From assembly GCA_963704885.1 (NCBI GenBank), contig CAVPIB010000007.1:201975-265974 (forward strand): a stretch of DNA of 64,000 bases, read 5' to 3'. This stretch comes from an uncultured Actinomycetes bacterium. Lineage in GTDB: Bacteria; Actinomycetota; UBA4738; HRBIN12. The translations under genes and the position numbers were made by a program. Each line of letters starts with the position of its first letter. The first letter of the stretch is position 1. The notes under the pieces were generated by a model. It made no database searches, had not been told where the DNA came from, and worked only from the letters and a program-made list of their open reading frames with translations. Positions 4,100-55,654 of the stretch are shown here, in pieces.

Positions 4100-6346
4100 G
4101 TGACCCGAGTGGCCGCGAGAAGAAGGGAGCGCCACATGTCGTTGTCAGGGGCCCTTTACCGCCTGGGGCGAGGGTCGGTGCGTCGGCGTCGGCTCGTCGT
4201 GGCCGTCTGGATAGTGTCGGCGGTGGGGATGCTGCTTACCGGGCGTGCCCTGGGCGCGAGCTCGGTGGACGACTTCCGGGTGCCCGGGACTGAATCCCAG
4301 CAGGCGCTTGACCTGTTGAGGGAGCGGTTCCCCGCGGCCTCCGGCACCGAGGCCACCGTGGTGTTCCATATAGCCACGGGCACGGCACGCGACGCCCAGA
4401 ACGTCGTGCTGATCGGCGAGACGCTCAGCCAGGTCGCGCGACTTCCGCACGTGCTTGGTGTGGAGAGCCCCGTGGCCGACTCCACCCCATCGGGTCGGGC
4501 GGGTGTGTCCGCAGACGGGACGATCGCCTTCGCGACGGTCCACTACGACTCCGACGCGTCGGCACTCGGTATCCGGGCCGTCGATGCGCTCGAGGAGGCC
4601 GTTGGCCCGGCTCGCGAAGCCGGGATGCAGACGGAGCTCGGTGGCGCGCTGCTGCAATCGGTCGACCGGGCGGAACCGAAATCCTCAGAGCTGTTCGGCT
4701 TGGTGGCCGCGGTGCTGGTGTTGCTGCTGGCGTTCGGGTCAGTGGTCGCGATGGGGCTGCCGATCGGCACCGCGATCCTCGGCCTGCTCACCGGCATGTC
4801 GGTCGTGAAGCTCGTGAGCCTGTTCGTCGACATGCCCACTGTGGCGCCGACGCTCGCGACGATGATCGGGTTGGGCGTGGGGATCGACTACGCCCTGTTC
4901 ATCGTCACACGACACCGCGAGTACCTCCATGCAGGACTCACGGTCGAGGAGGCCGCCGGTCGCGCGATCGCGACCTCGGGCCAGGCGGTCGTGGTCGCCG
5001 GTGCCACCGTTGTGATCGCGATCTTGGGCCTATGGATCTCGGGGATCCCGTTCGTCGGCCTCCTCGGAACCGCATCGGCGATCGTCGTGACCGTGGCGGT
5101 GCTCGCCGCCATCACGGCGCTGCCCGCGCTGCTCGGGTTCGCCGGGCAGGCGATCGATCGTCTCCGCGTCCCGCGGTTCGGCCGTCGGTCCTCCAACGCC
5201 GAAGCGTCGCCGGGTTGGCGGCGGTTCGGTCGCCACGTGGTCGACCAACCTTGGCGTCACCTGGCGCTCAGCCTCGCGATCCTCGGCGCGCTGGCGGTTC
5301 CCCTGTTCTCGATGCGGCTAGGCCAGGTGGACGCGGGGACGGCCTCGGCCGAGACTACCCAGCGCCGCGCCTTCGACCTCATGACGCAGGGCTTCGGACC
5401 GGGCTTCAACGGTCCACTGCTGTTGACCGTCGAGGGCGCCGACGCGGCAACCCTGGGATCGATCGGCGTTGCTGTGGCTGCCGACCCCGACGTCGTCGCG
5501 GTGAAGCCGCCGATGGCGAGCCCCGACGGAACGACCGCCGTCATCACCGTCGTCCCGGGGTCCTCGCCGCAGAGCGAGGCAACTACCGAGTTGGTGTCGC
5601 GCCTCCGCGATCAGGTGCTGCCCGGCGTCGTCGAGGGAACCGACGCGCAGGTCTTCGTCGGCGGCCAGACCGCCACCTATGTCGACCTGGCGGCGAAGGT
5701 CGGTGACGCCCTTCCGCTGTTCATCGGCGCGGTCGTGCTGCTTTCGTTCGTGTTGCTGACCGTGGTCTTCCGCTCGATCCTCGTGCCGCTCAAGGCCGCC
5801 CTGATGAACCTGCTGTCGATCGGCGCCGCATACGGCGTGGTCGTCGCTATCTTCCAGTGGGGGTGGGGCAAAGGTCTCGTCGGCCTCGAGGAGACGGTCC
5901 CGATCGTCTCGTTCGTGCCGATGATGATGTTCGCGATCCTGTTCGGCCTCTCGATGGACTACGAGGTGTTCCTGCTCTCGCGGATCCGCGAGGAGTACGT
6001 GCAACGGCGCGACAACGCGGAGAGCATCGTGACCGGGTTGGCATCGACAGCGAGGGTTATCACCTCGGCCGCCCTCATCATGATCGCCGTGTTCCTCTCC
6101 TTCCTGTTGAACGACGACCCGACCGTGAAGATGGTGGGCATCGGACTGGCGACCGCGGTGGCCGTGGATGCCACGATCGTCAGGATGATCTTGGTGCCCT
6201 CGACGATGGCGTTGCTCGGTGACGCGAACTGGTGGCTGCCCCGGTGGCTCGACCGCCTGCTACCGAGGATCGACATCGAGGGCGAGGCCGGACTTCCTCT
6301 TGGAAGCGAGGCACGGGTAACCGGAGCTACAGTCGAGGTCGTTTGA
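4100..6346 (+). CDS. MMPL-family (RND superfamily) membrane transporter
   Basis: 748 aa, about 12 TM helices with two periplasmic loops, MmpL-type N-terminus. The likelier start is the ATG at 4136 (AAGGGAG Shine-Dalgarno); a GTG at 4100 is also open. Confidence 0.9.
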   Translation: MTRVAARRRERHMSLSGALYRLGRGSVRRRRLVVAVWIVSAVGMLLTGRALGASSVDDFRVPGTESQQALDLLRERFPAASGTEATVVFHIATGTARDAQNVVLIGETLSQVARLPHVLGVESPVADSTPSGRAGVSADGTIAFATVHYDSDASALGIRAVDALEEAVGPAREAGMQTELGGALLQSVDRAEPKSSELFGLVAAVLVLLLAFGSVVAMGLPIGTAILGLLTGMSVVKLVSLFVDMPTVAPTLATMIGLGVGIDYALFIVTRHREYLHAGLTVEEAAGRAIATSGQAVVVAGATVVIAILGLWISGIPFVGLLGTASAIVVTVAVLAAITALPALLGFAGQAIDRLRVPRFGRRSSNAEASPGWRRFGRHVVDQPWRHLALSLAILGALAVPLFSMRLGQVDAGTASAETTQRRAFDLMTQGFGPGFNGPLLLTVEGADAATLGSIGVAVAADPDVVAVKPPMASPDGTTAVITVVPGSSPQSEATTELVSRLRDQVLPGVVEGTDAQVFVGGQTATYVDLAAKVGDALPLFIGAVVLLSFVLLTVVFRSILVPLKAALMNLLSIGAAYGVVVAIFQWGWGKGLVGLEETVPIVSFVPMMMFAILFGLSMDYEVFLLSRIREEYVQRRDNAESIVTGLASTARVITSAALIMIAVFLSFLLNDDPTVKMVGIGLATAVAVDATIVRMILVPSTMALLGDANWWLPRWLDRLLPRIDIEGEAGLPLGSEARVTGATVEVV

Positions 6347-35873: not shown

Positions 35874-36986
35874 ATGCCGACACGCCACACGCCATACCAC
35901 CAGCGGTTCATGGAGCTCGGGGCTGAGATGGGGGACCGGATCGGGTTCGACGCGGCGGTCGTGTTCTCATCGACCGAGAAGGAGCACCTGGCCACGCGCG
36001 AAGGCGTGGGGCTGTACGACGTCTACTACCAGGGGCCCATCGACATCAAAGGGCCGGACGCGCAGGCGCTCCTGGACCATGTGCTGGCGCGTGACGTGCC
36101 GCGGCGGTTGGCCACCGACGGTCAGGTGCTCTACTCCTCGGTCTGTAGCGCGGAGGGCGGGATGATCGACGACCTCACCGCTTACCGACTGGGACCTGAG
36201 CACTACTGGCTGATCGCCACGCCGGCCCGCGCCGAGATCGTCGGACTCACGTGACCGAGCACGCACGCGATCGCCGCGCCTTCGTGACCAACTGCATCTC
36301 GGGCACTGCGTATCTGTCCGTGCAGGGCCCGGGTTCGCGCGAGCTGCTCGCGCCGCTCGCGGAGGCGGATCTGTCGACCGACCGGCTCCCCTACTTCAGG
36401 TGTGTTCGAACCGTGGTCGCCGACGTGCCCACCCTCGTGTCGCGCACGGGCTACTCGGGCGAGCTGGGGTACGAGCTCTACTACCCGCGCGACTACGCGC
36501 TCCACATGTGGGACACGCTCACGAACGCCGGCGCCACGCCGTGCGGGCTGGGGGCGCTGCGCAGCGTTCGCATGGAGAAGAAGTACCCGCTCTACGGCCT
36601 GGACGTTAGCGAGACCACGTCGCCGCTGGAGGCGGGTCTGGGATGGGCGGTCGACCTGGATGGGTCGGACTTCATGGGACGCGACGCGCTGATGCGTCAG
36701 CGCGATGAGGGGATCGCACGGCTCCTCACGGGGATCGAGTTCCCCGACCTGTCGTTCGTCCCGTCCGCTGGGGACGCCGTGGCGACCGCCGACGGCGAGC
36801 CGCTCGGCACGCTCACGTCCGCGGACCGCGGCTGGTTCCTGGGCAAGGCGCTGGCGATGGGCTATCTGCCGTTCGACCTCGCCCGGTTCCACCGTCACGG
36901 TGACCTCGGCCGACGGCACCCGGGGCGAGGGCGTGACTTCGGATCGACCGTTCTACGACCCGGACGGAACGCGCGTCCGCGCTTAG
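35874..36986 (+). pseudogene. gcvT: glycine cleavage system T protein / aminomethyltransferase family gene split over three frames (35874-36254, 36251-about 36900, 36705-36986)
   Basis: YDVYYQGPIDIKGPDA (N), LSVQGPGSRELL..VSRTGYSGELGYELYYP..LRSVRMEKKYPLYGLD..EAGLGW (middle) and MGYLPFDLA..VTVTSADGTRGEGVTSDRPFYDPDGTRVRA (C) in frames shifted by 1 nt each. Confidence 0.7.
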
Positions 36987-36997
36987 GGTGCCTGGCG

Positions 36998-37688
36998 ATG
37001 AGCGCATGGAATGTTCTCGGCAGGCGCGCCCTGGTGACGGGCGGCAACCGTGGCATCGGCCTGGAGGTCGTGCGGCTCTTGGGTCCGCATTGGCTTGGAG
37101 GTCTTCCTAGGCTCGCGCGATCCGGACGCGGGGGCGACCGCCGCCTCGGCGCTCGGATCGCCGGGTGTCACACCGGTTCGCATCGACGTAGCCGACCCCT
37201 CGAGCGTGATGGCCGCTCACGATTCACTGGCGCCGGCCGGTATCGACGTGCTGGTCAACAACGCCGCGGTCAACCCACGAGGTCGGGTGACGCCGGAGGA
37301 GGCCGACCGGGCTTGGCAGGTGAACACGCTGGGGTGTTGGCGCGTGACACAGGCGTTCCTGACGCCGATGCGTGAGCACGGCTGGGGCCGGATCGTGAAC
37401 GTCTCTTCCGAGGTGGCCGCGAACGCGCATGAGCAGCGGGGTGGGGGCATCTACGCCGCGACGAAGATCGCTCTGAACGTCATGACTCGCGCGCTCGCAG
37501 AAGATCTAGAAGGGACCGGGATCTTGGTGAACGCGATCAGTCCGGGGTGGTGCCGATCGGACATGGGTGGGGCGAGTGCACCGCGATCGGTCGAGCAGGG
37601 TGCTGCGAGCATCGTCTGGGGTGTGACGCTCCTCGACGACGGTCCGTCCGGAGGCTACTTCCAGGACGGCGAACCGTTCGCCTGGTAG
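36998..37688 (+). pseudogene. SDR family oxidoreductase with a frameshift near 37080
   Basis: MSAWNVLGRRALVTGGNRGIGLEVVRLL in one frame; VFLGSRDPDAG...VLVNNAAVN...YAATKIALN...PGW in the next. The near-duplicate segments IGLEVV and IGLEVF flank the shift. Confidence 0.65.
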
Positions 37689-43299: not shown

Positions 43300-46200
43300 C
43301 TAACCGCCCAGCATCCTGAACGGCTCTGGTGTGTACTCGCCGAGTACGCGGACCCACTCCTGGCTGAGCAGGTCCCGGATCACCGGATCGTCCTTCGATA
43401 GCCAGGACAGGTGTCGCAGGCCATGCTCGATCACCTGGATCACGTCTATCCGCGCGGGCGCGCCGTGCGAGCTTCCACGTGCCAGCTCTGCACGCTCGAC
43501 GTCGTCCTCGGTCCAACCGACCGCGGTCTCCGGCACGACCGCCAGATAGGTGAGCACGACGCGGTCGCCCTCGGTTCGCCACGATGTTGAGTGAACGGCG
43601 ATCGGCTCGAGCCCGCGGGACGCGAGCTGCGCCAGAACCACATCGCCCGGCTGCCCGTCCGCGGTGCTCGCCACGCGAAGCGGGTGATCCTGGCCGGCCG
43701 CTCGCAACCAATGGAGCGCGGATCCGCGGAGCAGCACGGGGAAGACCTCGACGATGCCGTCCCCTCGGCCGCGTTGGGCCAGATGCTCGATCGTGCGGAT
43801 GCTGGCCTGAGCGGATGCGGCCTCGGGCGGCATCGTCTCCAGAGCTGTAGCCATACCGGCGATCACCCGGTCCGTCGTTCGTGAACTCCCGGCCAGGAAC
43901 GACGCGAACGCTTCCGCGCTGAAGAGCACGACCCTGGTCTCCGGGTCGGCCTCAGCCCGCCAGGGGGGATCTACTCCGGCGAGCGTCTCGACGCCGAACA
44001 CCTCACCCGGCCCGACGCGGGCGATCAACGCCTCGCCTTCCAGCAGCCGAACGAGGCCGGCGTCCACGCTGATGACGACCTGACCGGTATCGACCGGCCC
44101 ACCGTCGACCAGGTCTCTCGCGTCGCCCTGGTCGGAGACGGCGGTGAGCACCGCGGCGTCCAGATCGGCGAACCACGCGTCCATCGGCGGCGCCAGCAGC
44201 GAAGCGACCGCGGGACGCGCGATGTAGCTGGCGCGGGTCTCATCGTCGGGAGCGGTTGCGGCGATCGCGCGGGCGATCTCGGCGGCCCGCGCGCGCGCGG
44301 CGGCGGCGGCCGTCATGTGTCCGTGGGTGGAGAGCGCGTCCGCCTGGAGGGCGGACGCGCGCCACTGCAGCATCCGGTCGCCGCGGCGTGCCGCCGCGGC
44401 GACCACCCCCCGGGCCACTTCTTCGACATCCCCGCCTTCGCGGGCATCGGCCAGAGCCCTACCGTAGACAGCCCAGTCGGCCAGACCCAGCGCGTCGTCC
44501 CCGGCTCCCTCGGCCAGGTGCTCGGCCGCCGTCCTGATCGAGTTCGGATCGCCGTGCTCTTCGGCGCCGAGAAGCTCGATCCACGAGTTCCAAACGACAT
44601 CGAGCTCGACGCCCCCCGCTTCTCGCAGACCCTCCGCGAAGAGATCGGCGGCCTTCGCGGGGTCGCCATCCATCAACGCGAACCAGCCCTCCCAGGCGAA
44701 CGAGCGCGGCCTGTAGAACGATCCGCCGAGTGATGCGGAGATCTCCTCACACGTATCCAGGTCCGCGTGCAGCCGGTCGACGGCTCCCAGCTCCGCCCAC
44801 GCATGCATCCGGACGGAGCGCTGGGCCAGGTCCATCCGGGGCGTGCGCATGTCGGCGGCCAGTTCGATCGCGTGGGTTGGGTCGACGGCGGCCGCCCCCA
44901 GATCGCCGAGGACGAGGTGCGCCATCCCTCGGGACATGGCGAACCCCTCGTCGCGTCGGTTGCCCAGCTCGCGACAACCTTCGATGGACTCGTCGAAGGC
45001 GGCCAGGGCCGCGTGCAGCTCCCCGCGGAGCCAGTGGGCCCAAGCCACCATGTAGAGGTTGTGGAACACCATGGGCCGCTGGCCCAGCGTCCGGAACGCG
45101 CGGTCGGCCTCTAGTCCGTCGGCGAGCGAGCGGGAGAACGGCCCGAGGAAGAACCGCGTCTCGCACAACCCGTGCAGCGACATGGCCTCGCCGAGCGCGT
45201 CCCCGTGCTCGCGCGCGACGCGGATCGCCTCCTGATGGTGGGCGAGCGCCTCGTCGAAGTGCGCGCGACCGAACGCGAGCGTCCCCGCCGTGTAGAGAAG
45301 GTGCGCAACCAGATCGTTGGCGCCCGCCGCGCGCGCGTGCTCGAGGGCGTGAGCCAGCACGCCCTCCCCTTCGTCGTAGCGATCCTCCAGCCACAGCACG
45401 TGCGAGAGCGCCGCGAGCGCCCGCGCCTCGTCGGCCGGCAACCCGGCGCGACCGGCTGCATCGCGCGCGGCCTCGTAGTCGGCTTGCGCCTCCTCGAACC
45501 GACCCAGTTGTTCCCGAACCTCGCCCCGGGACAAAAGCAGGCGGGCCAGCACGTCGTCGGCTCCGACCTGCGATGCGAGCGGGACCGCTCGGTCGTAACG
45601 GTCGATCGCCAGCTCTGCGGCGAACGTCTTGCGCGCTCGGTCGCCGGCGCGCATGAGCGCCGCCAGCAGCGGCTCCCGCAGAGACGCTTCATCGTCGGTC
45701 CGCCCGAGCTCCACGGCCAGGTCGGCAGCGAGCACCAGGTGCTGGGCGGTCGCGTCGGCCAGATCCTCGCCGCCCGCGTGTTCGTTCAGCCACTCGGCCA
45801 CAGCTCGATGCTTGGACATCCGGACGGCTCGCGGGATGCTCGCGTAGGCGACGTCCCGCACCATGACGTGCCAGAAAGCGAGCTCCCTCTCGTTCGCCAT
45901 CGTCGAGGGCGTCGAGGGTCGCACCAGCTCCCTGCGGATCAAGTCGTCGATCATCGAACCGACCTGCGTGGCATCTCGATCCGCGAGCGACGCGAGTACC
46001 CCCGGCCAGAACGTTCGACCGACCACCGCGGCGTCCTGGACGAGCGACTTCACATCCGGTGACAGGGTGTCGAGCCGCGCGGCGACCAACGCCTGAACGG
46101 TCGCCGGCACCGCTGTAGGATCCGCGGCGCTCTCGCCCTCACGAACCGACGCGGCCAGTTGCTCGGCGTAGAGCGGGCTGCCTCCCGCCCGTTCGAGGAC

Positions 46201-47679
46201 GGCCGCGGTCATCTCGGGAGAGGCATCCGGCAGCACGGTCGAGACGAGCGCGGCGACATCCCGGTCGGCCAGTGGCGGCAGGGACAGGACCGTGGAGCGG
46301 CGCGCGCGCGCGAACCACGACGGGTGTCGGTCCTCGACCGCGGGTCTGGCCGTCACGATCACCAGGAGCGGGAGCCCCGCGGTCCGATCGGCGACGTCGG
46401 CCAGGAACCCAACGAGAGCATCGTCGGCCCAGTGCAGGTCCTCGATCACCACGACCGCGGGGCCGTCCGCGGCGAGCGACTCCAGGAAGGTCCGCCATGC
46501 GGAGAACGTCTCCGCGCGATCCATGGCCGCCTCCGCGTCCAGACCGACCAGCGTCGCCAACCGCTCCTGGACCCACGGACGCCGGCCGGGCTCCACGCCG
46601 ATCAACGCCTCCCGCAACTTGGTCTCCACCGCTTCCGGCGCATCGGTGTCCAAGATCCCTCCGTGCGCCTTCACGATCTGGGCGAGGGCCGCGAAACTGC
46701 CCCCGTCGCCGAACGGGAGGCAGCGACCCTGACGCCAGACGGGGCCCGGCGCAGCCTCGGAAGTGGCACGAGCAAGCTCACGGACCAACCGCGACTTGCC
46801 CATCCCCGCGTCCGCCACGATCGTGACGAAGCTAGTGGACGGATCTTCCGCCGCCCGTCGGTAGAGCTGGCTCAGCAGCCCAAGCTCAAGGTCCCGTCCG
46901 ACCAGCGGACCGGCGTCCGAGACGTCCCCGCCAAGGGCGGATGTTCGCTCCCCGATCACCCGCCAGATCGGGACCGGGGCGGCCTTCCCCTTGACCGCCA
47001 CGGGTTCCAGTGCCTCAAGCTCGAAGTCGCCGCGCGCGGCCCCGAACGTGGCCTCCCCGACGACGATCCCCATCTCGGGCGCGACACCCTGCAGCCGCGA
47101 GGCGGTGTTCACCGCGTCGCCGGTGACGTAGCCCTCGCCGGCCTCGGGCCGCGCGTCCATGGCCACCAGAACCTCGCCCGTGTTGATGCCGATCCGCACG
47201 CGCAGGCCGTCGCCGGCCGTCCCGAGCGACCGCAGTATCGCAAGGCCCGCCCGGATCGCACGGTGCGGATCGTCCTCATGAGCGATCGGCGCGCCGAACA
47301 CGGCCATCACGGCGTCCCCCACGAACTTCTCGACGGTGCCGCCCAGCCGCTCGATCTCTCGGCGCAGTAGCTCGTGGTAGGGCTTCAGCAGCGATCGGAC
47401 ATCCTCAGGATCGGCCCCCTCGCTCGATGCGGTGAACCCGACCAGATCGCAGAACAAGATCGTGACGACCTTGCGCTCGTCACCACGCGTCACCGGCTCC
47501 GTATCGGTCAGCCTCGAGCCGCAGCTGCCGCAGAAGCGGTTCCCGTCAGGGTTGGGTGCGCCGCACGAAGGGCAGCCGTCGGCCGAAGGTGGTCGATCCG
47601 TCACGTTCGGGAGCCTAGCGACCGGGGGAGTGGAGCGTGAAGGACTCAGCTCTGGTCGGGGATCACTCCACCGTGGCAA
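43300..47679 (-). CDS. multidomain signalling protein: Zn-ribbon + class III adenylyl/guanylyl cyclase catalytic domain + STAND/AAA ATPase + TPR repeats + about 430-aa unassigned C-terminal region (no LuxR HTH)
   Basis: CPSCGAPNPDGNRFCGSCGSRL; cyclase motifs VTILFCDLVGFTA...FVGDAVMAVFGAP...GINTGEV; P-loop IVADAGMGKSRL; long TPR/helical region. C-terminal segments such as GEVFGVETL and VVISVDAGLVRLLEGE are of unknown fold. 1459 aa, intact. Confidence 0.9.
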   Translation of the reverse strand: MPRWSDPRPELSPSRSTPPVARLPNVTDRPPSADGCPSCGAPNPDGNRFCGSCGSRLTDTEPVTRGDERKVVTILFCDLVGFTASSEGADPEDVRSLLKPYHELLRREIERLGGTVEKFVGDAVMAVFGAPIAHEDDPHRAIRAGLAILRSLGTAGDGLRVRIGINTGEVLVAMDARPEAGEGYVTGDAVNTASRLQGVAPEMGIVVGEATFGAARGDFELEALEPVAVKGKAAPVPIWRVIGERTSALGGDVSDAGPLVGRDLELGLLSQLYRRAAEDPSTSFVTIVADAGMGKSRLVRELARATSEAAPGPVWRQGRCLPFGDGGSFAALAQIVKAHGGILDTDAPEAVETKLREALIGVEPGRRPWVQERLATLVGLDAEAAMDRAETFSAWRTFLESLAADGPAVVVIEDLHWADDALVGFLADVADRTAGLPLLVIVTARPAVEDRHPSWFARARRSTVLSLPPLADRDVAALVSTVLPDASPEMTAAVLERAGGSPLYAEQLAASVREGESAADPTAVPATVQALVAARLDTLSPDVKSLVQDAAVVGRTFWPGVLASLADRDATQVGSMIDDLIRRELVRPSTPSTMANERELAFWHVMVRDVAYASIPRAVRMSKHRAVAEWLNEHAGGEDLADATAQHLVLAADLAVELGRTDDEASLREPLLAALMRAGDRARKTFAAELAIDRYDRAVPLASQVGADDVLARLLLSRGEVREQLGRFEEAQADYEAARDAAGRAGLPADEARALAALSHVLWLEDRYDEGEGVLAHALEHARAAGANDLVAHLLYTAGTLAFGRAHFDEALAHHQEAIRVAREHGDALGEAMSLHGLCETRFFLGPFSRSLADGLEADRAFRTLGQRPMVFHNLYMVAWAHWLRGELHAALAAFDESIEGCRELGNRRDEGFAMSRGMAHLVLGDLGAAAVDPTHAIELAADMRTPRMDLAQRSVRMHAWAELGAVDRLHADLDTCEEISASLGGSFYRPRSFAWEGWFALMDGDPAKAADLFAEGLREAGGVELDVVWNSWIELLGAEEHGDPNSIRTAAEHLAEGAGDDALGLADWAVYGRALADAREGGDVEEVARGVVAAAARRGDRMLQWRASALQADALSTHGHMTAAAAARARAAEIARAIAATAPDDETRASYIARPAVASLLAPPMDAWFADLDAAVLTAVSDQGDARDLVDGGPVDTGQVVISVDAGLVRLLEGEALIARVGPGEVFGVETLAGVDPPWRAEADPETRVVLFSAEAFASFLAGSSRTTDRVIAGMATALETMPPEAASAQASIRTIEHLAQRGRGDGIVEVFPVLLRGSALHWLRAAGQDHPLRVASTADGQPGDVVLAQLASRGLEPIAVHSTSWRTEGDRVVLTYLAVVPETAVGWTEDDVERAELARGSSHGAPARIDVIQVIEHGLRHLSWLSKDDPVIRDLLSQEWVRVLGEYTPEPFRMLGG

Positions 47680-48241
47680 GGGCCTCGATCTGGGCGACCG
47701 TGCGGTCGAGCTCGTCGACCAGGCGGGATCCGAAACCGTCGAGCGAGCGATAGATGCCGACGAGCGTTCGGTAGTACCAGAGGGTCCCGTCCCTCCCGCC
47801 GGTGGATCGTTCGAACATCCCGACGCCTCCCGTGCGCAGATCCATCAGGATCGACCGCGCGTTGTGGACCTTGTCCGCCACCGAGACAAGGAGCGCGTCA
47901 GGTGGCGCGCTCGGCAGGTGCGCCAGGTAGGACTCCTTGCGCTGTCGCCATGGCGGCTTCGGCTCCTCCATCGTGTCGGTGCACGCCTCCACGATCTCGG
48001 CGACTTCTTGCCCGAATCGAACGCGGATGTCCTCGAGCCGCGGAAGTCCACCCTGGTCCTCTACGGCGTCGTGCAGGAGCGCGGCGATGGCTTGGGTTTG
48101 GGTTCCACCCTCTTCGATCACCAGCGACGCGACGCCCAGAAGGTGCGAGACGTAGGGGACCTCGCTCGCCTTCCGCGGCTGTGCTCGGTGGATGTCGGAT
48201 GCGTAGATCAGCGCATCGTCGAAGTCCGATCCGAGCTTCAC
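47663..48241 (-). CDS. HD domain phosphohydrolase
   Basis: HLLGVASLVIEE...ALLHDAVED HD motif. Overlaps by 17 nt, and is co-directional with, the downstream cyclase-ATPase gene. Confidence 0.85.
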   Translation of the reverse strand: MKLGSDFDDALIYASDIHRAQPRKASEVPYVSHLLGVASLVIEEGGTQTQAIAALLHDAVEDQGGLPRLEDIRVRFGQEVAEIVEACTDTMEEPKPPWRQRKESYLAHLPSAPPDALLVSVADKVHNARSILMDLRTGGVGMFERSTGGRDGTLWYYRTLVGIYRSLDGFGSRLVDELDRTVAQIEALATVE

Positions 48242-48257
48242 GACCGCAGACTATCCT

Positions 48258-49406
48258 TTGGCCATGTCGACGTCCGTGCTCGTCCTCGGTGCCGGTTTCG
48301 GCGGACTCGAGCTGTCCACCCGGCTCTCGGAAGGGCTCGGCGACGAGGTCGAGATCACGTTGATCGATCGTGCGGACGCGTTCGTGTTCGGCTTCTCGAA
48401 GTTGGACCTGATGTTCGGCCGACGGATGCCAGAAGCCGTCCGCCTGAGCTACAGCGACATCACGACGCCCCAGGTCAGGTTCCGACAGGAGACCATCAGC
48501 TCGATCGACGCCGATGCACGGCGCGTGGTGACAGATCTCGACACCTACGAGGCCGACATCCTGGTGGTGGCTCTCGGCGCCGACTACGACCTCGCGGCCA
48601 CGCCCGGGCTGGCAGAGGCAGGCAACGAGTTCTACTCGGTACCTGGCGCCGAGATCCTGCGCGGTGTGCTCCCGTCGTTCCGTGAGGGCACGGCGATCGT
48701 GGGCGTGTGCGGAGCCCCGTTCAAATGCCCCCCGGCGCCCAGCGAGGCGGCGCTCCTCCTGGACGAGTTCCTGCGGGAGCGCGGCATCCGCGACGCTGTC
48801 CGGATCCAGGTCGTGATCCCTTTCGGCTCGCCGATCCCGCCGTCGCGCGCCACCTCGGAGGCGATCGTGGCTGTGTTCGCAGAACGAGATATCGAGTTCG
48901 TGCCCGATCGTCTGGTCGTTGCGCTCGACCCGAACACGAAGGAAGCCGTGCTGGACGACGGCAGACGCCTGCCTTACGACCTGTTCCTCGGCATCCCGGT
49001 GCACCGAGCGCCGGGGGTGGTCGTGGACTCGGGTCTCACGGAGAACGGCTGGATCCCCGTGGACCCGTCCACGCTCGCCACACGGTTCCCGGACGTCTAC
49101 GCCGTGGGTGACGTCACCAGCGTCGGCACCCCCAAGGCCGGGGTGTTCGCCGAAGGCGCGGCGCGAGTCGTGGCCGACCGACTGATCGCTCGGATCCGCG
49201 GGGCCGGCGAGGCTCCCGGCTACGACGGCACGGGCTCCTGCTATGTCGAGTTCGGAGGCAAAGAGGTCGCGCGCGTCGACGTCGACTTCTTCTCCACGCC
49301 GGGACACCCGACCGGAACGTTCGTGGCGCCGTCTGCGGAGATGACCGCCGAGAAGGCCGAGTTCGGATCCAGCCGGCTCGCTCGCTGGTTCGGCGGCCGG
49401 CGCTGA
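48258..49406 (+). CDS. FAD-dependent pyridine nucleotide-disulfide oxidoreductase, sulfide:quinone oxidoreductase (SQR)-like
   Basis: GAGFGGLE FAD motif, FKCPPAPSEAA (SQR-type motif), and a second Rossmann motif YAVGDV. Confidence 0.8.
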   Translation: MAMSTSVLVLGAGFGGLELSTRLSEGLGDEVEITLIDRADAFVFGFSKLDLMFGRRMPEAVRLSYSDITTPQVRFRQETISSIDADARRVVTDLDTYEADILVVALGADYDLAATPGLAEAGNEFYSVPGAEILRGVLPSFREGTAIVGVCGAPFKCPPAPSEAALLLDEFLRERGIRDAVRIQVVIPFGSPIPPSRATSEAIVAVFAERDIEFVPDRLVVALDPNTKEAVLDDGRRLPYDLFLGIPVHRAPGVVVDSGLTENGWIPVDPSTLATRFPDVYAVGDVTSVGTPKAGVFAEGAARVVADRLIARIRGAGEAPGYDGTGSCYVEFGGKEVARVDVDFFSTPGHPTGTFVAPSAEMTAEKAEFGSSRLARWFGGRR

Positions 49407-51247: not shown

Positions 51248-53449
51248 CTAGTCGAGCAGGGCGTCGAACGCCTTCTGAGTGTCGGTCAACCGTTCCGCCA
51301 GCGTCCCGGCGAGCCATCGGTGAAGCGCCGCTGCCAGCTCCGGCTCATCGGCCTCCAACCGCTCGATGGAGGCCCGGCTGAGCCTAAGGACCACGCTCGG
51401 CGTCTCGGCCACGACGTCGGCCGTGCGCGGAACACCCGTGTAGAGGGCGATCTCTCCGACCACCACCCCCGGTCGCACCGAGCGCAGGCGCATCCGCGTC
51501 CCCTCGGGCGTCACCATCTCGACGCTCAGGCGGCCCGACTCCAACACGAACACATCCTCGGGCGGCTCGTCTTGGCGTATCAGCACGGTCCCTTCCGCGA
51601 GCGACACGTGTTCGAGGTATGTCTCAAGACCCGCCGGCATGCCGGCGAGCGACTCGGTAGCGGCGACCCCCGCGAGCCGCTCGGCCTGGGCGTCTTGCAG
51701 CAGGACGTCCTCGCACCGCTGCAGGCCTCGATCCAGATCCGGCTCGAACCGCACGACCCCTTCAGAGGGGACCACGCCGCCGCGGGCCAGCTGCTCGCGC
51801 ACGCGATCCGAGGCCCCCGCTAACACCAGCTCGAACCCGCTCGCCTGGGCGAGGTGGGTCACCTTGACGAAGGACATCACCGCCGAGGCGTCCATGCCCG
51901 TCACCTGTCGCAGGTCCATCAGCAGGAACCGCGGCGCCGTCGTCTCCACCCGCTTGCGGATGCGTTCGAGCAGGCCGCTAGCCGAGCCGAAGAACACGAA
52001 CCCGTGCACCCGCAGGATCTGAACCCGCTCGCCCATCTCGCGCAGGGATGCTCGCTCCGCGGGTGGACGGTCGACGTTGCTGCGGTAGGTGTCCCCGAAC
52101 GCGACCTCGCGCACCAGTTCGATCCGACCGTAGCTGACCGCGAACAAGACGACGGCCATCACCAGGCCGATCACCACGCCGGGCAGGAACCCCTTCGTGA
52201 TGATGCCCGCGAGGATCACCAGGACGACGGCGTACTCGACCTTCGGCAAGCTCCGCCGCTTGTCCCAGACCCACTCGACGATGAAGGCGAGGCCTAAGAA
52301 CACCAGCACGCCGCCGACGATCATCCGCGGGATCAGCTCGATGACCGCCGCGCCGAACACGACGGCGGTGATCGGGACGAGCGAGGCGACGAGCCCGGCG
52401 GTCCGCGTGTTGACGCTCATGCGCTCCGCGAGCGCCGTCAGGCTGAGCGCGTGGTACCCGGGGATCCCACCGAGCGCCCCGGAGATGACGTTGAGGAAAC
52501 CGGCGTCGCGGAGCTCCTGGTTCGTGTCTAGGTCCCGGTGAAGCACGATCTCGGTTCCGCTGATGTTGAACAAGATCGCGATGGACGGCGACGAGCACCG
52601 CGGCGCGATCTCCGTCCACTGTCCGAGCACCGCCGACCAATCGGCGCCCGTGATTGCGCGCAGGGTCCACGGTTGCCACAGCCGCACGGACTCGAACGGC
52701 CCGAGGAGCCATCTCCCCTCCTGCGCGGCGTCGATCGAGGAGCCGGTGACGAGCATGCCGATCACGAACAGGGCGAGCCCGATGCGCGAGCACGATCGGG
52801 ATGACCAGAGGCTTCTTCACCAGCCGGACGGCGAGGAGCAAGATCACGCCGAACGCGAATGCTGGAAGCCAGTGCTTGAGCGTCTCCGAGTTGAGCATCA
52901 GTCCGACCGTGCGCAGGTGCACCTCCACGCCCGAGGCGACATAGAGGCCGCCCTTCAAGAGCAGCCACCCGGTGCCGGCGAGGAAGCCGCCGACGACCGG
53001 GTACGGCACGAACCGGACCAGGTCGCCCAGCCGGAAGGTCCCGAGCGCCGAGAAGACGACACCGCAGAGGATCGTCACGACCAGGGTCGCGGCTATGACG
53101 GTGAGGAATACGTCGGGGGCTTCGTAGTTGCCCAGGGACCCTGCCGTGGCATCCCTCGCGATCGAAGCGGCCTTCGCCGCCGTGGTCGCTGCCACGACCG
53201 CGAGGACGGCCGCCGCCGCGTCCTGCACGCTTCCCACCACCCCCGGCGACCCGCCCTCCAGGCCAAGATCCCCAGCGTCAGTGCGGCAGCCACGAGGTAC
53301 AGGCCGATGCCATCGGCGAGGCGACCGACGAGGAGGCCGCCGAACACGAAGGCGGCGAACGCGATCGCGAGGACCGCCTCGACGACGCCGATGATCACGC
53401 CAGCGGCGAGCGAGGTGAGCATCCCCACGGATCGTCGCTCCTCGGACAA
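51248..53449 (-). pseudogene. SulP family anion transporter with STAS and C-terminal cyclic-nucleotide-binding domain, copy A, with at least 2 frameshifts
   Basis: N-terminus (53093-53449 frame), TM core VVGSVQDAAAAV...VPYPVVGGFLAGTGWLLLKGG (51978-53240 frame), and IGMLVTG...STAS...cNMP domain VFVLESGRLSVEM..GVVVGEIALYTG (51248-52765 frame). Confidence 0.7.
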
Positions 53450-53468: not shown

Positions 53469-55654
53469 CTAGTCGAAGAGGGCCACGACGGCCCTCTGAG
53501 TGTCGGTCAGCCGTTCCGCCAGCGTCCCGGCGAGCCATCGGTGAAGCGCCGCTGCCAGCTCCGGCTCTTCGGCCTCCATCCGCTCGATGGAGGCCCGGCT
53601 GAGCCTAAGGACCACGCTCGGCGTCTCGGCCACGACGTCGGCCGTGCGCGGGATACCCGTGTAGAGGGCGATCTCTCCGACCACCACGCCCGGGCGCACC
53701 GAGCGCAGGCGCATCGGCGTCCCCTCGGGCGTCACCATCTCGACGCTCAGCCGGCCCGACTCCAGCACGAACACGTCGTCGGGCGGCTCGTCCTGGCGGA
53801 TCAGCACCGTGCCCTTCCGCCAGGGGCATGCGCTCGAGGTATGTCGAAAGACCCGGCGGCATGCCGGCGAGCGCCTCGCTCGACGCCGTCCTTTTCCCCG
53901 AGCCGCTCGGCCGGCGCCCTGGAGCAGAACGTCCTCGCACCGCTGCAGGCCTCGATCGAGATCCGGCTCGAACCGAGACGACCCCTTCAGAGGCCACCAC
54001 GCCGCCGCGGGCCAGCTGCTCGCGCACCCGATCCGAGGCCCCCGCTAACACCAGCTCGAACCCGCTCGCCTGGGCGAGGTGGGTCACCTTGACGAAGGAC
54101 ATCACCGCCGAGGCGTCCACGCCCGTCACCTGCCGCAGGTCCATCAGCAGGAACCGCGGCGCCGCCGTCTCCACCCGTTTGCGGATGCGCTCCAGCAGGC
54201 CGCTCGCCGAGCCGAAGAACACGAACCCGTGCACGCGCAGGATCTGAACCCGCTCGCCCATCTCGCGCAGGGATGCTCGCTCCGCGGGCGGACGGTCGAC
54301 GTTGCTGCGGTAGGTGTCCCCGAACGCGACCTCGCGCACCAGTTCTATCCGGCCGTAGCTGACCGCGAACAAGACGACGGCCATCACCAGGCCGATCACC
54401 ACGCCTGGCAGGAACCCCTTGGTGATGATGCCCGCGAGGATCACCAGGACGACGGCGTACTCGACCCTCGGCAAGCTCCGCCGCTTGTCCCAGACCCACT
54501 CGACGATGAAGGCGAGGCCTAGGAACACGAGCACGCCGCCGACGATCATGCGCGGGATCAGCTCGATGACCGCCGCGCCGAACACGACGGCGGCGAGCGG
54601 GACGAGCGAGGCGACGAGCCCGGCGGTCCGCGTGTTGACGCTCATGCGCTCCGCGAGCGCCGTCAGGCTGAGCGCGTGGTACCCGGGGATCCCACCGAGC
54701 GCGCCGGAGATGACGTTGAGGAAACCGGCGTCGCGGAGCTCCTGGTTCGTGTCGAGGTCCCGGTGCAAGGACGATCTCGGTGCCGCTGACGTTGAACAGG
54801 ACCCCGATCACGGCTACGAACACCACGGTGACGATGCCGGCGGACTTGGCCAAGCACCGCCGACCAGTCGGCGCCGGTGAGGGCGCGGAAGGTCCACGGC
54901 TGCCACAGCCGAGTCGAGTCGAACGGTCCGAGCATCCAACCTCCCCCGAGCGCGCGTCGGTGGTCGAGCCCGTGACGAGCATGCCGATCGCGAACAGCGC
55001 GAGCCCGGCCCCGATGACCACCGGGATCACGAGCGGCCGCTTCAACACCCGGGTCAGGACCAGCAGGATCACGCCGAAGACGACGGCCGGAACCCAGTGG
55101 GCCAGCACGGCGGCGGGCCGTAGGTCGCCGACCGCGCGCAGGGAGACCTGCATGTCCGCCGCGACTCCGATGCCACCCTTCAGGAGCAGCCACCCCGTTC
55201 CCGCCAGGAATCCGCCCACGACCGGGTATGGCACGTACCGGACCAGATTGCCCAGCCGGACCGTCCCCAGCACCAAGAACGTGATGCCCGTCAGGATCGT
55301 CACGACCAGGGTCGCGGCGATGACGGTGAGGAACGCCCGTTGGGGGCTCCCGTAGGCGTCCAGGGCCGTGCTCGTGGCGACGACCGCGAGCACGGCCGCC
55401 GTCGCGTCCTGCACGCTGCCCACCACGCCGCGGTTGCCGGCCCTCCAGGCGAGGATCGCGAGCGTCAGCGCGCCCGCCACCAGGTACAGGCCGATGCCGT
55501 CGGCCAGGAAATACGCGAGGTAGCCGCCGAACACAAGGGCGGCGAACGAGATGACCAGGACCGCCTCGACGGCGCCGATGATCAAGCCGGCGGTGATAGA
55601 GGCGGCCAGCACTCCCCCAGATCGTCGCTGTTCGGACACGGAGCCCCCCGCCAC
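53469..55654 (-). pseudogene. SulP-STAS-cNMP-binding transporter, copy B (tandem paralog), with at least 3 frameshifts
   Basis: Nearly identical segments to copy A at the nucleotide level. N-terminus plus TM in the 53987-55654 frame, middle in the 53605-54768 frame, and cNMP domain in the 53469-53807 frame; an extra out-of-frame piece appears in 54663-55193. Confidence 0.7.

What the first reader, a model, noticed from the sequence alone, without database searches (positions are those of the whole stretch)
43300..48241. HD hydrolase plus a 1459-aa Zn-ribbon/cyclase/STAND-ATPase/TPR protein with an unassigned C-terminal module instead of the usual LuxR HTH
The domain order Zn-ribbon, class III nucleotidyl cyclase, P-loop NTPase and TPR resembles the mycobacterial Rv0386/Rv1358/Rv2488c group. 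Those proteins end in a LuxR-type DNA-binding domain. Here the last roughly 430 aa contain no HTH and include segments of unknown fold, for example GEVFGVETL, which is faintly cNMP-binding-like. The gene is translationally linked to an upstream HD-domain phosphohydrolase, which could degrade its nucleotide product, through a 17-nt overlap. The STAND-ATPase-plus-TPR core with an enzymatic domain is also the layout of Avs-type antiviral STAND proteins, and class III cyclases are the signal generators of Pycsar systems. A nucleotide-second-messenger sensor, or a defence-type STAND protein whose output is a cyclic nucleotide, is therefore a testable hypothesis. The window also carries two SulP transporters with C-terminal cNMP-binding domains (51.2-55.7 kb).
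Basis: partly seen in the sequence, partly recalled or inferred. Interest (0 to 1): 0.75.

Follow-up and report, generated by a model that had tools for sequence, protein, structure and literature searches.

The report
Cyclase-STAND protein with Nudix-like tail
A large actinobacterial signalling protein (cAMP-type cyclase, ATP-driven switch, TPR repeats) carries a rare tail: a decayed cyclic-nucleotide-binding domain plus an unnamed Nudix-fold domain that is probably a small-molecule sensor. The proposed phage-defence role and the functional tie to the neighbouring HD gene are not supported.

Summary
The two genes are real and the domain order is confirmed: Zn-ribbon, class III cyclase, AAA_16 STAND NTPase, TPR.

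Three points of the finding change:
- **Start codon.** The true start is the GTG at 47604, giving 1434 aa. A 58-nt spacer, not a 17-nt overlap, separates it from the HD gene.
- **HD protein.** It is a RelH-type small alarmone hydrolase, a (p)ppGpp enzyme family, not a cNMP phosphodiesterase. Its adjacency to the cyclase gene appears only in a near-identical relative.
- **LuxR comparison.** LuxR-less proteins of about 1100-1200 aa are the common form of this family. The window protein aligns colinearly with them to residue ~1163.

The real novelty is the last ~296 aa. They form a CRP-like cyclic-nucleotide-binding (CNB) fold, whose phosphate-binding cassette is canonical in orthologues but degenerate here. 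This is followed by a ~155-aa Nudix-fold domain ("X") that lacks the Nudix box. X is absent from Pfam and NCBIfam and is found mostly in MAGs.

X is usually stand-alone. It recurs as STAND-TPR-CNB-X and is occasionally fused to HTH domains. It most resembles the ligand-sensing Nudix domains of NrtR, AraR and NadQ.

No defence context was found. Verdict: a new variant of a known kind, of moderate interest.

The parts
43300..47604 (-). The cyclase-STAND gene with corrected start (GTG at 47604; 1434 aa plus stop). Residue numbers elsewhere in this report use the 1459-aa maximal-ORF numbering; subtract 25 for the real protein.
   Evidence: ORF. The public copy P0296 is 1434 aa and identical to residues 26-1459. 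L086 has a 1-nt indel between the TTG and the GTG. The gene call in L086 starts 59 nt after the HD stop.
47605..47662 (-). 58-nt non-coding spacer between the HD stop codon and the GTG start. It replaces the supposed 17-nt overlap.
   Evidence: No promoter-like or terminator-like site falls in it. Its RNA fold is not unusual (z = -0.18).
47663..48241 (-). 192-aa HD_4 protein, a RelH-type small alarmone hydrolase (SAH).
   Evidence: PF13328, E 4e-21. TIGR00691 spoT_relA N-terminal region. PDB 7QOE at E 1e-51 and 7QOC at 5e-24, plus Mesh1. 7QOE and 7QOC are RelH SAHs. The HDAVED motif is visible.
47509..47574 (-). N-terminal 4-Cys zinc ribbon (residues 36-57, CPSCG...CGSCG).
   Evidence: PF13240, E 7e-7; sequence.
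46981..47472 (-). Class III nucleotidyl cyclase catalytic domain (residues 70-233). Metal-binding Asp78 and Asp122, Lys118, Asn191 and Arg195 are present. The second specificity position is Tyr184, and is hydrophobic across the family.
   Evidence: PF00211, E 1e-19. PDB alignments to Cya2, CyaB and CyaC. Column composition in 97 sequences.
45700..46908 (-). STAND NTPase module (AAA_16 at residues 258-441, with Walker A GMGKS at 292 and Walker B VVVIEDLHWAD at 409) plus the following helical arm to about residue 660.
   Evidence: PF13191, E 6e-19. Motifs located. TIGR03903 partial match over residues 67-659.
44191..45612 (-). TPR and helical repeat region (residues ~690-1163). This is the C-terminal end of the ordinary family scaffold.
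   Evidence: TPR_12 and other TPR hits. HaaT TPR match at 695-980. LGN/Pins TPR matches. Colinear alignment with P0035 to its last residues.
43825..44157 (-). CRP-like cyclic-nucleotide-binding (CNB) beta-barrel with its C-helix (residues ~1175-1285). The phosphate-binding cassette is degenerate in this lineage (FGVE...PPWRAEA against FGE...PRTA in orthologues), and two short deletions are present.
   Evidence: Model m6eefee2a1d55, pLDDT 86. Foldseek hits to CRP, GlxR and PKA-R. Pfam hit of 16.9 bits, below the cut-off. Alignments.
43303..43767 (-). Domain X (residues ~1305-1459): a Nudix-fold domain without a Nudix box, belonging to an unnamed family. Conserved motifs are E(V/I)xPV, HSTSWR, LTYxAV, ELARG, QVxEHxxRHLxWLxxDD and PEPF.

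Best explanation
The large gene encodes a soluble signalling protein of the widespread actinobacterial family Zn-ribbon / class III cyclase / AAA_16 STAND NTPase / TPR. The neighbouring RelH-type alarmone hydrolase is most likely an unrelated, or only lineage-specifically co-transcribed, neighbour.

**Shown**
- The N-terminal cyclase keeps both metal-binding aspartates, the substrate lysine and the transition-state Asn and Arg.
- The NTPase has intact Walker A and Walker B motifs.
- The scaffold is colinear with ordinary family members up to residue ~1163.
- A rare 296-aa extension follows. It consists of a CRP-like CNB fold and then a Nudix-fold domain (X) that lacks the catalytic Nudix box.

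**Inferred mechanism**
- As in MalT-type STAND proteins, ligand binding to the C-terminal sensor region (TPR plus CNB-X) would release autoinhibition.
- Nucleotide exchange and oligomerisation of the NTPase would follow.
- This would bring the N-terminal cyclase domains together into catalytically competent dimers, giving a burst of cNMP, most likely cAMP.

**Inferred role of the extension**
- X most likely acts as a non-catalytic small-molecule sensor, like the Nudix-like domains of NrtR, AraR and NadQ. Its many invariant Arg and His residues suggest an anionic ligand such as a nucleotide derivative.
- The CNB domain provided product feedback ancestrally, because orthologues have a canonical cassette. 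In this lineage its binding residues have decayed, so it may now serve only as a structural relay between TPR and X.
For: **Domains and catalytic motifs**
- Domain hits.
- Cyclase residues. D78, D122, N191 and R195 are invariant in 97 of 97 sequences, and K118 is Lys in 90 of 97.
- Walker motifs.

**Family size and boundary**
- More than 7800 homologues have E<=1e-10. The best 120 listed are mostly ~1100-1200 aa and none has GerE.
- Alignment with P0035 is colinear to residue 1138 of 1434.

**CNB domain**
- The fold is supported.
- The cassette is canonical (FGE...PRTA) in P0032, P0174, L007, L014, P0164 and P0169. It is degenerate in the window protein, P0030 and P0031.

**Domain X**
- The fold is Nudix. 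The best Foldseek hits are ligand-sensing Nudix regulators: AraR with arabinose, NrtR with ADP-ribose, and NadQ with ATP or NAD.
- No Nudix box residue is conserved.
- X is fused N-terminally to GerE (P0191) and HTH_17 (P0241), which is the sensor-then-output order of one-component regulators.
- The STAND-TPR-CNB-X architecture recurs with and without a cyclase.

**Context**
- The neighbourhood is housekeeping and is syntenic with L086.
- The HD adjacency is not conserved.
Against: - No ligand, activity or oligomeric state has been measured.
- X carries an unusually rich set of invariant polar residues: E, HSTSWR, two Arg, and EHxxRH with two His spaced i and i+4. This set could equally form a metal or catalytic site.
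- X is also fused to enzymes (PIG-L deacetylase and an alpha/beta hydrolase).
- In STAND proteins without an N-terminal effector (P0150, P0166, P0171), CNB-X occupies the position of the output domain of MalT/LAL regulators. This argues that X could be an output rather than a sensor.
- The second substrate-specifying residue of the cyclase is non-canonical (Tyr or another hydrophobic residue), so the product is uncertain.
- The HD gene lies 58 nt upstream on the same strand with no terminator-like site between them. Co-transcription in this organism is therefore not excluded.
Confidence: 0.5

Rival explanations
1. Self-contained second-messenger relay. The TPR region senses the input and the STAND switch activates the cyclase. 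The cNMP product then binds the CNB domain in cis or in trans, and CNB activates X. In this reading X is a new enzyme built on a Nudix scaffold, with a novel active site formed by E22, H74 and E129-H130...H134 (domain numbering).
For: - CNB always directly precedes X in the fused forms, mirroring the CRP order of sensor then output.
- Cyclase-less STAND-CNB-X proteins have no other recognisable output domain.
- The invariant His and Glu constellation includes two His spaced i and i+4 on a helix.
- X is fused to other enzymes in P0199 and P0214.
Against: - The Nudix box is absent.
- The closest structural matches by Foldseek are non-catalytic sensor Nudix domains.
- X-GerE and X-HTH_17 fusions place X in the sensor position.
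- The CNB cassette is degenerate in the window protein itself, so the relay could not run on cNMP here.
Confidence: 0.2
2. Anti-phage STAND system, Avs-like or Pycsar-like, whose output is a cyclic nucleotide.
For: - The layout of enzymatic domain, STAND NTPase and TPR is shared with Avs proteins.
- PADLOC PycC models match the cyclase domain at E 5e-14.
- There is a weak partial Avs1b match.
Against: - The PycC hits cover only the generic class III fold, and the same domain matches ordinary adenylyl cyclases more strongly.
- The Avs1b hit scores 12-16 bits over 88 residues, against an NCBIfam cut-off of 1500.
- No cNMP-activated effector gene and no PADLOC hit occurs among ten neighbouring genes.
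- The neighbourhood is housekeeping and syntenic in a relative.
- The family has thousands of conserved members, with further AAA_16/TPR STAND genes near X in several loci.
- X is absent from phage records. Its only PLSDB hit is an 11.85-Mb record labelled as a plasmid.
Confidence: 0.04
3. The HD (SAH) gene and the cyclase-STAND gene form a functional operon that links (p)ppGpp turnover to cAMP signalling. One version has X sensing an alarmone or its breakdown product.
For: - The genes are on the same strand with a 58-nt spacer and no terminator-like site between them.
- The pair is kept in the close relative L086.
- X has a Nudix fold and an Arg/His-rich conserved surface suited to phosphorylated nucleotides.
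Against: - Adjacency is seen only in a relative that is 96-98% identical at the protein level over the parts compared.
- No HD_4 gene occurs in the 85 loci fetched, including the three with full-architecture orthologues.
- From the HD side, only 1 of 38 loci has any cyclase hit, and it is 2.8 kb away.
- The claimed translational coupling does not exist.
Confidence: 0.1
4. In this particular lineage the CNB-X tail is a decaying remnant with no ligand-dependent role, and the protein works like any ordinary 1100-aa family member.
For: - The CNB phosphate-binding cassette has lost its Glu and its Arg-Thr, and the barrel carries two short deletions, in the window protein, P0030 and P0031.
- The Pfam score is below the cut-off.
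- Other genes in this window carry frameshifts.
Against: - X itself keeps every family-invariant residue in the window protein.
- X is 72-83% identical to the close relatives P0001 and P0002.
- The reading frame is intact over 1434 codons.
- Both domains are modelled with high confidence.
Confidence: 0.1

Closest known systems
Unnamed family of Zn-ribbon / class III cyclase / AAA_16 / TPR proteins of ~1100-1200 aa (labelled by sources as 'class 3 adenylate cyclase/TPR repeat protein'; Actinomycetota and other soil phyla)
   Same: Colinear at 40-54% identity from the zinc ribbon to the end of the TPR region. The same catalytic and Walker motifs are present.
   Different: The window protein has 296 extra C-terminal residues (CNB plus X). 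Among the 120 best hits, Pfam flags a CNB domain only in P0032.
Mycobacterial Mclx proteins Rv0386, Rv1358 and Rv2488c (CHD - AAA/NB-ARC - LuxR HTH)
   Same: N-terminal class III cyclase homology domain followed by a STAND-type ATPase (PMC4452763).
   Different: There is no LuxR/GerE HTH, and the end is CNB plus a Nudix-like domain instead. Per PMC4452763, the CHD-LuxR combination is nearly exclusive to mycobacteria, so it is not the family norm.
MalT / LAL-type STAND regulators (AAA_16 NOD, TPR-like sensor, C-terminal output)
   Same: AAA_16 NTPase plus a TPR sensor arm, with weak MalT hits. Inducer-driven oligomerisation is the presumed working principle; this rests on established knowledge of STAND proteins and was not tested here.
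   Different: The output is an N-terminal cyclase rather than a C-terminal HTH. The C-terminal position is occupied by CNB-X.
Nudix-related ligand-sensing regulators NrtR (ADP-ribose), AraR (L-arabinose) and NadQ (ATP/NAD)
   Different: - There is no detectable sequence similarity.
- X has its own invariant motifs (HSTSWR, EHxxRH, PEPF).
- The window copy has no DNA-binding domain.
- The ligand is unknown.
CRP/FNR-type cyclic-nucleotide-binding domains
   Same: Beta-barrel plus C-helix fold. Orthologues have a canonical FGE...R[TS]A cassette.
   Different: The window copy lacks both hallmark contacts (CRP Glu72 and Arg82-Ser83 equivalents). It is followed by a Nudix-like domain instead of a wHTH.
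RelH-type small alarmone hydrolases (C. glutamicum RelH, L. levettii RelH, Mesh1), compared with the HD neighbour
   Same: A single HD_4 domain of ~190 aa with the HDxxED motif. E 1e-51 to 7QOE across residues 2-185.
   Different: Nothing notable was found. It looks like an ordinary member whose activity is untested.

Membership tests
Mclx / Rv0386-type cyclase-LuxR proteins | N-terminal class III cyclase homology domain | tested here: met
   PF00211, E 1e-19, residues 70-233.
Mclx / Rv0386-type cyclase-LuxR proteins | C-terminal LuxR/GerE helix-turn-helix | tested here: not met
   No GerE or other HTH hit at E<=0.1. The C-terminus is modelled as a CNB fold plus a Nudix fold.
Zn-ribbon / cyclase / AAA_16 / TPR family (~1100-1200 aa) | Colinear full-length homology across all four modules | tested here: met
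   42% identity over 1192 aligned columns with P0035, running to within six residues of its end. More than 7800 hits at E<=1e-10.
Catalytically competent class III nucleotidyl cyclase | Two metal-binding Asp, a substrate Lys, and the transition-state Asn and Arg | tested here: met
   D78, D122, K118, N191 and R195 align with the CyaC, CyaB and Cya2 motifs. They are invariant or nearly so in 97 sequences.
Catalytically competent class III nucleotidyl cyclase | Canonical second specificity residue (Asp or Thr for ATP; Cys, Ser or Gly for GTP) and measured activity | tested here: inconclusive
   The position aligned with CyaC Thr1139 is Tyr184, and is Ile, Met or Phe in relatives. The product cannot be read from sequence, and activity cannot be tested with these tools.
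Pycsar | A PycC cyclase paired with an adjacent cNMP-activated effector gene (TM or TIR) | tested here: not met
   Only generic cyclase-domain similarity to PycC models. No effector and no PADLOC hit among ten neighbouring genes.
Avs (antiviral STAND) | A match to Avs family models and a defence-island context | tested here: not met
   Avs1b scores 12.4 bits against a cut-off of 1500 and 15.7 bits in PADLOC over 88 residues. The neighbourhood is housekeeping and syntenic.
Cyclic-nucleotide-binding (CNB) domain | Eight-stranded beta-barrel with a C-helix | tested here: met
   Model pLDDT 86. Foldseek hits to CRP, GlxR, PKA-R and HCN at E 1e-7 to 1e-5.
Cyclic-nucleotide-binding (CNB) domain | Phosphate-binding cassette with Gly-Glu and Arg-Ser/Thr-Ala | tested here: not met
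   The window protein has FGVE...PPWRAEA where orthologues have FGE...PRTA. The Pfam score is 16.9 bits, below the gathering score of 27.5.
Nudix hydrolase superfamily | Nudix alpha/beta/alpha fold | tested here: met
Nudix hydrolase superfamily | Nudix box GX5EX7REUXEEXGU with catalytic glutamates | tested here: not met
   - The helix at the Nudix-box position reads PGDVVLAQLASRGL.
- No acidic residue is conserved there in 30 or 70 family members.
- hhalign places it opposite the MutT box, but without statistical support.
- None of the 70 members hits PF00293 at E<=10.
NrtR/AraR/NadQ-type Nudix-related regulators | Nudix-like sensor domain followed by a winged-helix DNA-binding domain | tested here: not met
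   The window protein ends about 35 residues after the core, with three short helices. Only a few X members carry GerE or HTH_17. There is no sequence similarity.
NrtR/AraR/NadQ-type Nudix-related regulators | Binding of a small-molecule effector in the Nudix pocket | not testable with these tools
   This needs binding assays or a ligand-bound structure.
Small alarmone hydrolase (RelH/Mesh1), for the HD neighbour | A single RelA/SpoT-type HD_4 domain with the HDxxED motif and close similarity to characterised SAHs | tested here: met
   PF13328, E 4e-21. LLHDAVEDQG motif. 7QOE at E 1e-51 and 7QOC at 5e-24, plus Mesh1. The identities of these PDB entries are confirmed in PMC9293644.
Small alarmone hydrolase (RelH/Mesh1), for the HD neighbour | (pp)pGpp 3'-pyrophosphohydrolase activity | not testable with these tools
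   This needs an enzyme assay.

The most novel reading that the evidence does not exclude
Domain X is a previously unrecognised signalling domain built on a Nudix scaffold. It would be either a receptor for a nucleotide-derived messenger or an enzyme with a new His/Glu active site. It is gated by the preceding CNB domain, which would make STAND-TPR-CNB-X proteins one-polypeptide circuits that both make and respond to a cyclic nucleotide. The ~900 stand-alone X clusters in soil Actinomycetota, Chloroflexota and Dormibacterota would then be free receptors or effectors of the same signal.
Probability: 0.2. Interest if true: 0.6.

Novelty: new variant of a known kind. Interest (0 to 1): 0.42.

Why it matters
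Multidomain cyclase-STAND proteins are very abundant in Actinomycetota, yet their inputs are essentially unknown.

This variant points to a concrete candidate input module. It also defines an unnamed Nudix-fold domain family, with 884 representative clusters at 50% identity. The family has a sharply conserved motif set and tell-tale fusions to CNB, HTH domains and enzymes.

Finding its ligand would add a new small-molecule sensor type to bacterial signalling. It could also show what switches on one branch of these cyclases. A homologue in the cultured Nonomuraea gerenzanensis makes this experimentally approachable.

The correction has practical value too. It removes an attractive but unsupported defence and phosphodiesterase story. 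It also shows how taking the maximal ORF created a false translational coupling.

Tried and rejected
- **Plasmid search.** A megablast of the whole region against plasmids gave no match.
- **Structure searches.**
  - A Foldseek search with the two-domain model returned only CNB hits, so a domain-only model was needed.
  - The afdb50 fold library was unavailable, so no annotated AlphaFold neighbours of X could be retrieved.
- **Sequence searches for X.**
  - A profile of X against PDB sequences found nothing meaningful.
  - Pfam at E<=10 on 70 members showed no family for X.
It did place the X helix opposite the Nudix box.
- **Neighbour clustering.** Clustering ORFs around X in 84 loci found no conserved partner gene. 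The clusters were dominated by spurious overlapping ORFs in high-GC DNA.
- **Intermediate-length X ORFs.** ORFs of 286-693 aa were checked for extra domains. No fused domain turned up, and most are probably stop-to-stop extensions. One (L084) has a partial MTTB match that probably belongs to an upstream gene.
- **Exact look-ups.** The window's own big protein, its HD protein and P0030 were not on record, so the source contig's own gene calls could not be read.
- **Spacer analysis.** The promoter and terminator scan and the RNA fold of the spacer were uninformative.
- **Interpretations considered and rejected.**
  - HD as a cNMP phosphodiesterase.
  - A 17-nt translational overlap.
  - Avs or Pycsar membership.
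  - A hidden HTH in the last 50 residues, which is too short and consists of three small helices after the canonical C-terminal Nudix helix.

Full report
**1. What is at the coordinates**

The minus strand carries an uninterrupted ORF at 43300..47679 (1459 codons from the first TTG). A 192-codon ORF lies at 47663..48241.

Pfam hits on the large ORF:
- Zn_ribbon at 36-57.
- Guanylate_cyc at 70-233, E 1e-19.
- AAA_16 at 258-441, E 6e-19.
- TPR_12 with two matched stretches, the best at 751-824.
- A sub-threshold cNMP_binding hit at 1205-1263 (E 0.006, 16.9 bits against a cut-off of 27.5).
- No HTH of any kind.

The small ORF is PF13328 HD_4, E 4e-21.

**2. The start codon and the supposed overlap**

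The 17-nt overlap exists only if translation starts at the TTG at 47679.
- The public protein collection holds this gene as a 1434-aa product on a 275-kb contig. It is identical to residues 26-1459, so it starts at the in-frame GTG at 47604.
- A syntenic 11-kb contig from a related Actinomycetota MAG (L086) is 96-98% identical at the protein level for these two genes. Its gene call starts 59 nt after the HD stop.
- The DNA alignment shows a 1-nt insertion in L086 between the TTG and the GTG, GAA-CGTG against GAAGCGTG. An indel tolerated there means the stretch is not coding.

The genes are therefore separated by a 58-nt spacer (47605-47662). They share a strand, with no promoter-like or terminator-like site and no unusual RNA structure in the spacer. 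Co-transcription is possible. Translational coupling through an overlap is not.

**3. The HD neighbour**

HD_4 is the hydrolase domain of RelA/SpoT homologues.
- NCBIfam matches only the N-terminal region of spoT_relA.
- The best solved relatives are 7QOE (E 1e-51 over residues 2-185), 7QOC and Mesh1.
- PMC9293644 identifies 7QOC/7QOD and 7QOE as the small alarmone hydrolases RelH of Corynebacterium glutamicum and Leptospira levettii.
- The HDxxED motif is present.

This enzyme family removes the 3'-pyrophosphate of (pp)pGpp. It is not a 3',5'-cNMP phosphodiesterase family.

The adjacency has no comparative support:
- The orthologue P0032 has a glyoxalase gene upstream on the opposite strand.
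- A phmmer scan of six-frame ORFs found no HD_4 homologue in any of the 85 loci held at that point. These include all three full-architecture orthologues, L001, L007 and L014.
- From the HD side, 80 metagenome loci carry 53-63% identical SAH genes. Of the 38 with more than 1.5 kb downstream, only one has any cyclase hit, and it lies 2.8 kb away.

**4. The scaffold and the LuxR comparison**

A full-length search returned more than 7800 proteins at E<=1e-10.
- The 120 best are almost all 1100-1200 aa, with Zn-ribbon, Guanylate_cyc, AAA_16 and TPR domains.
- None carries GerE, and only P0032 carries a flagged CNB domain.
- The window protein aligns colinearly with P0035 (1223 aa, 42% identity). 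The alignment runs from the zinc ribbon to residue 1138 of 1434, which is 1163 in ORF numbering. That point is six residues from the end of P0035.

The CHD-LuxR combination of Rv0386, Rv1358 and Rv2488c is described as nearly exclusive to mycobacteria (PMC4452763). LuxR is therefore not the usual ending for this protein's relatives.

**5. Catalytic competence**

Alignment to Cya2, CyaB and CyaC, with column statistics over 97 sequences, gives:
- Metal-binding Asp78 and Asp122: 97 of 97.
- Lys118: Lys in 90 of 97, Arg in 7.
- Asn191 and Arg195: 97 of 97.
- The position aligned to CyaC Thr1139 is Tyr184, and is Ile, Met or Phe in relatives. This is non-canonical.

The enzyme looks active, but its product (probably cAMP) cannot be read from sequence. 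Walker A (GMGKS, 292) and Walker B (VVVIEDLHWAD, 409) are intact.

**6. The C-terminal extension, part 1: the CNB domain**

A search with residues 1160-1459 found only 29 proteins. Several of them carry PF00027 upstream of a shared, unnamed ~150-aa region.
- AlphaFold2 on that alignment gave pLDDT 86.
- Foldseek against the PDB returned CRP, GlxR, PKA-R, HCN and CNG domains at E 1e-7 to 1e-5.

Residues ~1175-1285 are therefore a CNB fold. The binding residues, however, are not conserved in this lineage:
- Orthologues P0032, P0174, L007 and L014, together with P0164 and P0169, have the canonical cassette FGE[VL]..L...PRTA.
- The window protein and its close relatives P0030 and P0031 read FGVE/LGIE...DPPWRAEA, and have two short deletions in the barrel.

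cNMP binding is thus likely ancestral and doubtful here.

**7. The C-terminal extension, part 2: domain X**

*Family size and distribution*
- A profile search of 1.84 billion representatives found 884 clusters at E<=1e-3, and 116 at E<=1e-30.
- Of the 150 listed, about 85% are 250 aa or shorter and are either stand-alone proteins or fragments.
- In GTDB genomes the relatives are all in MAGs. They are mostly from Actinomycetota, Dormibacterota and Chloroflexota, with a few from other phyla.
- A divergent, unannotated copy exists in cultured Nonomuraea gerenzanensis.

*No known sequence family*
- X has no Pfam, NCBIfam or PDB sequence match.

*Fold*
- A domain-only model built from 70 sequences has pLDDT 90 and pTM 0.83.
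- Foldseek ranks AraR (with arabinose) and NrtR first, followed by NudC and NadQ.

*Conserved residues*
- The helix at the Nudix-box position reads PGDVVLAQLASRGL and shows no conserved acidic residue across the family. hhalign places it opposite MutT's GETPEQAVVRELQEEVG, but without significance.
- The family's invariant residues are instead E22, H74-S-T-S-W-R79, R107, R112, E129-H130, R133-H134, W137, D142, W153 and P162-E-P-F165, in domain numbering.

**8. Architectural grammar of X**

- Cyclase-STAND-TPR-CNB-X: the window protein, P0031, P0032, P0174, L007 and L014.
- STAND NTPase (AAA_22, NACHT or nSTAND hits)-...-CNB-X without a cyclase: P0150, P0166, P0171, L008 and L012. P0161 also ends in CNB-X, but no NTPase domain was detected in it.
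- X-GerE (P0191) and X-HTH_17 (P0241).
- PIG-L-X (P0214) and alpha/beta hydrolase-X (P0199).
- DUF1059 adjacent to X in L003, and matched within three of the 70 aligned members.

No conserved neighbour of the stand-alone genes emerged. Contexts are housekeeping, for example gatCAB, dnaE, recQ, cydAB and a CheW/MCP pair.

X followed by an HTH is the order seen in one-component sensors, and matches the NrtR, AraR and NadQ precedent. CNB followed by X, in the position where LAL regulators carry their output, leaves room for X being an output or an enzyme.

**9. Defence hypothesis**

- PADLOC hits are generic PycC cyclase-domain matches plus a 15.7-bit Avs1b fragment. NCBIfam scores Avs1b at 12.4 bits against a cut-off of 1500.
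- Ten neighbouring genes give no PADLOC hit.
- Their Pfam content is housekeeping: acyltransferases, a pyridine-nucleotide oxidoreductase, DUF1345, SulP transporters, a SpoIID/M15 peptidase, GCV_T and an SDR.
- Gene order is conserved in L086.
- X is absent from phage records.

Defence is not supported.

**10. Most likely mechanism**

The domains, motifs, folds and architectures above are shown. The following steps are inferred.
- As in MalT-type STAND proteins, the C-terminal sensor region (TPR plus CNB-X) keeps the NTPase closed.
- Ligand binding allows nucleotide exchange and oligomerisation.
- This dimerises the N-terminal class III cyclase domains, which require a dimer interface for catalysis, and triggers cNMP synthesis.
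- X is most likely a non-catalytic Nudix-like sensor for an anionic small molecule.
- CNB provided product feedback ancestrally and is degenerate in this lineage.

Confidence is about 0.5. The main rival, at about 0.2, is that X is a CNB-gated enzyme or effector with a new His/Glu site.

**11. Verdict**

The defence and phosphodiesterase interpretations are not supported. The idea of a nucleotide or small-molecule sensor tail is supported in a modified form.

This is a new variant of a known kind of protein. It carries a hitherto unnamed Nudix-fold domain family, and interest is moderate.

Noticed in passing
window 51251-53422 (-) and 53472-55612 (-): The two SulP-STAS-cNMP transporter genes are each split over three reading frames compared with the intact 709-aa and 724-aa orthologues in L086. 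Each has two apparent frameshifts, so they are either pseudogenes or assembly indels in a pair of similar paralogues.
   Followed up: partly
window 36251-37688 (+): A GCV_T ORF matches its Pfam profile only from position 120, and it overlaps an SDR ORF in another frame. This may be a further frameshift or assembly error in this contig.
   Followed up: no
L169 ~4880-5330 (+), i.e. around NZ_LT559118.1 4891492-4891776 (Nonomuraea gerenzanensis): A divergent, unannotated stand-alone copy of domain X occurs in a cultured actinomycete, with the motifs VHSTSWR, LTYAV, IARG and HAVRHLAFL. This gives a tractable host for experiments.
   Followed up: partly
P0191 (GerE at 166-221), P0241 (HTH_17 at 181-227), P0214 (PIG-L-X), P0199 (alpha/beta hydrolase-X): Domain X is occasionally fused to C-terminal DNA-binding domains and to N-terminal enzymes. 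These are useful clues to whether it is a sensor or a catalytic module.
   Followed up: partly
L005 801-6540 and L167 1500-7535: In two metagenome contigs the cyclase-less STAND-CNB-X gene sits next to divergently transcribed chemotaxis genes (CheW in both; MCP and dCache in L005). In L005 the protein is split into three adjacent gene calls (AAA_22/HTH_77, CNB, X), which may reflect frameshifts.
   Followed up: no
L003 5849-6543: A small DUF1059 gene lies immediately upstream of stand-alone X, with a 5-nt gap. Three of the 70 aligned family members also match DUF1059 weakly, which hints at a recurrent pairing.
   Followed up: no
window 48242-48264: The HD gene and the divergently transcribed pyridine-nucleotide-disulphide oxidoreductase gene (start ~48264, +) are separated by only about 20 bp. 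Their promoters must therefore overlap the coding regions, or one of the start codons lies further in.
   Followed up: no
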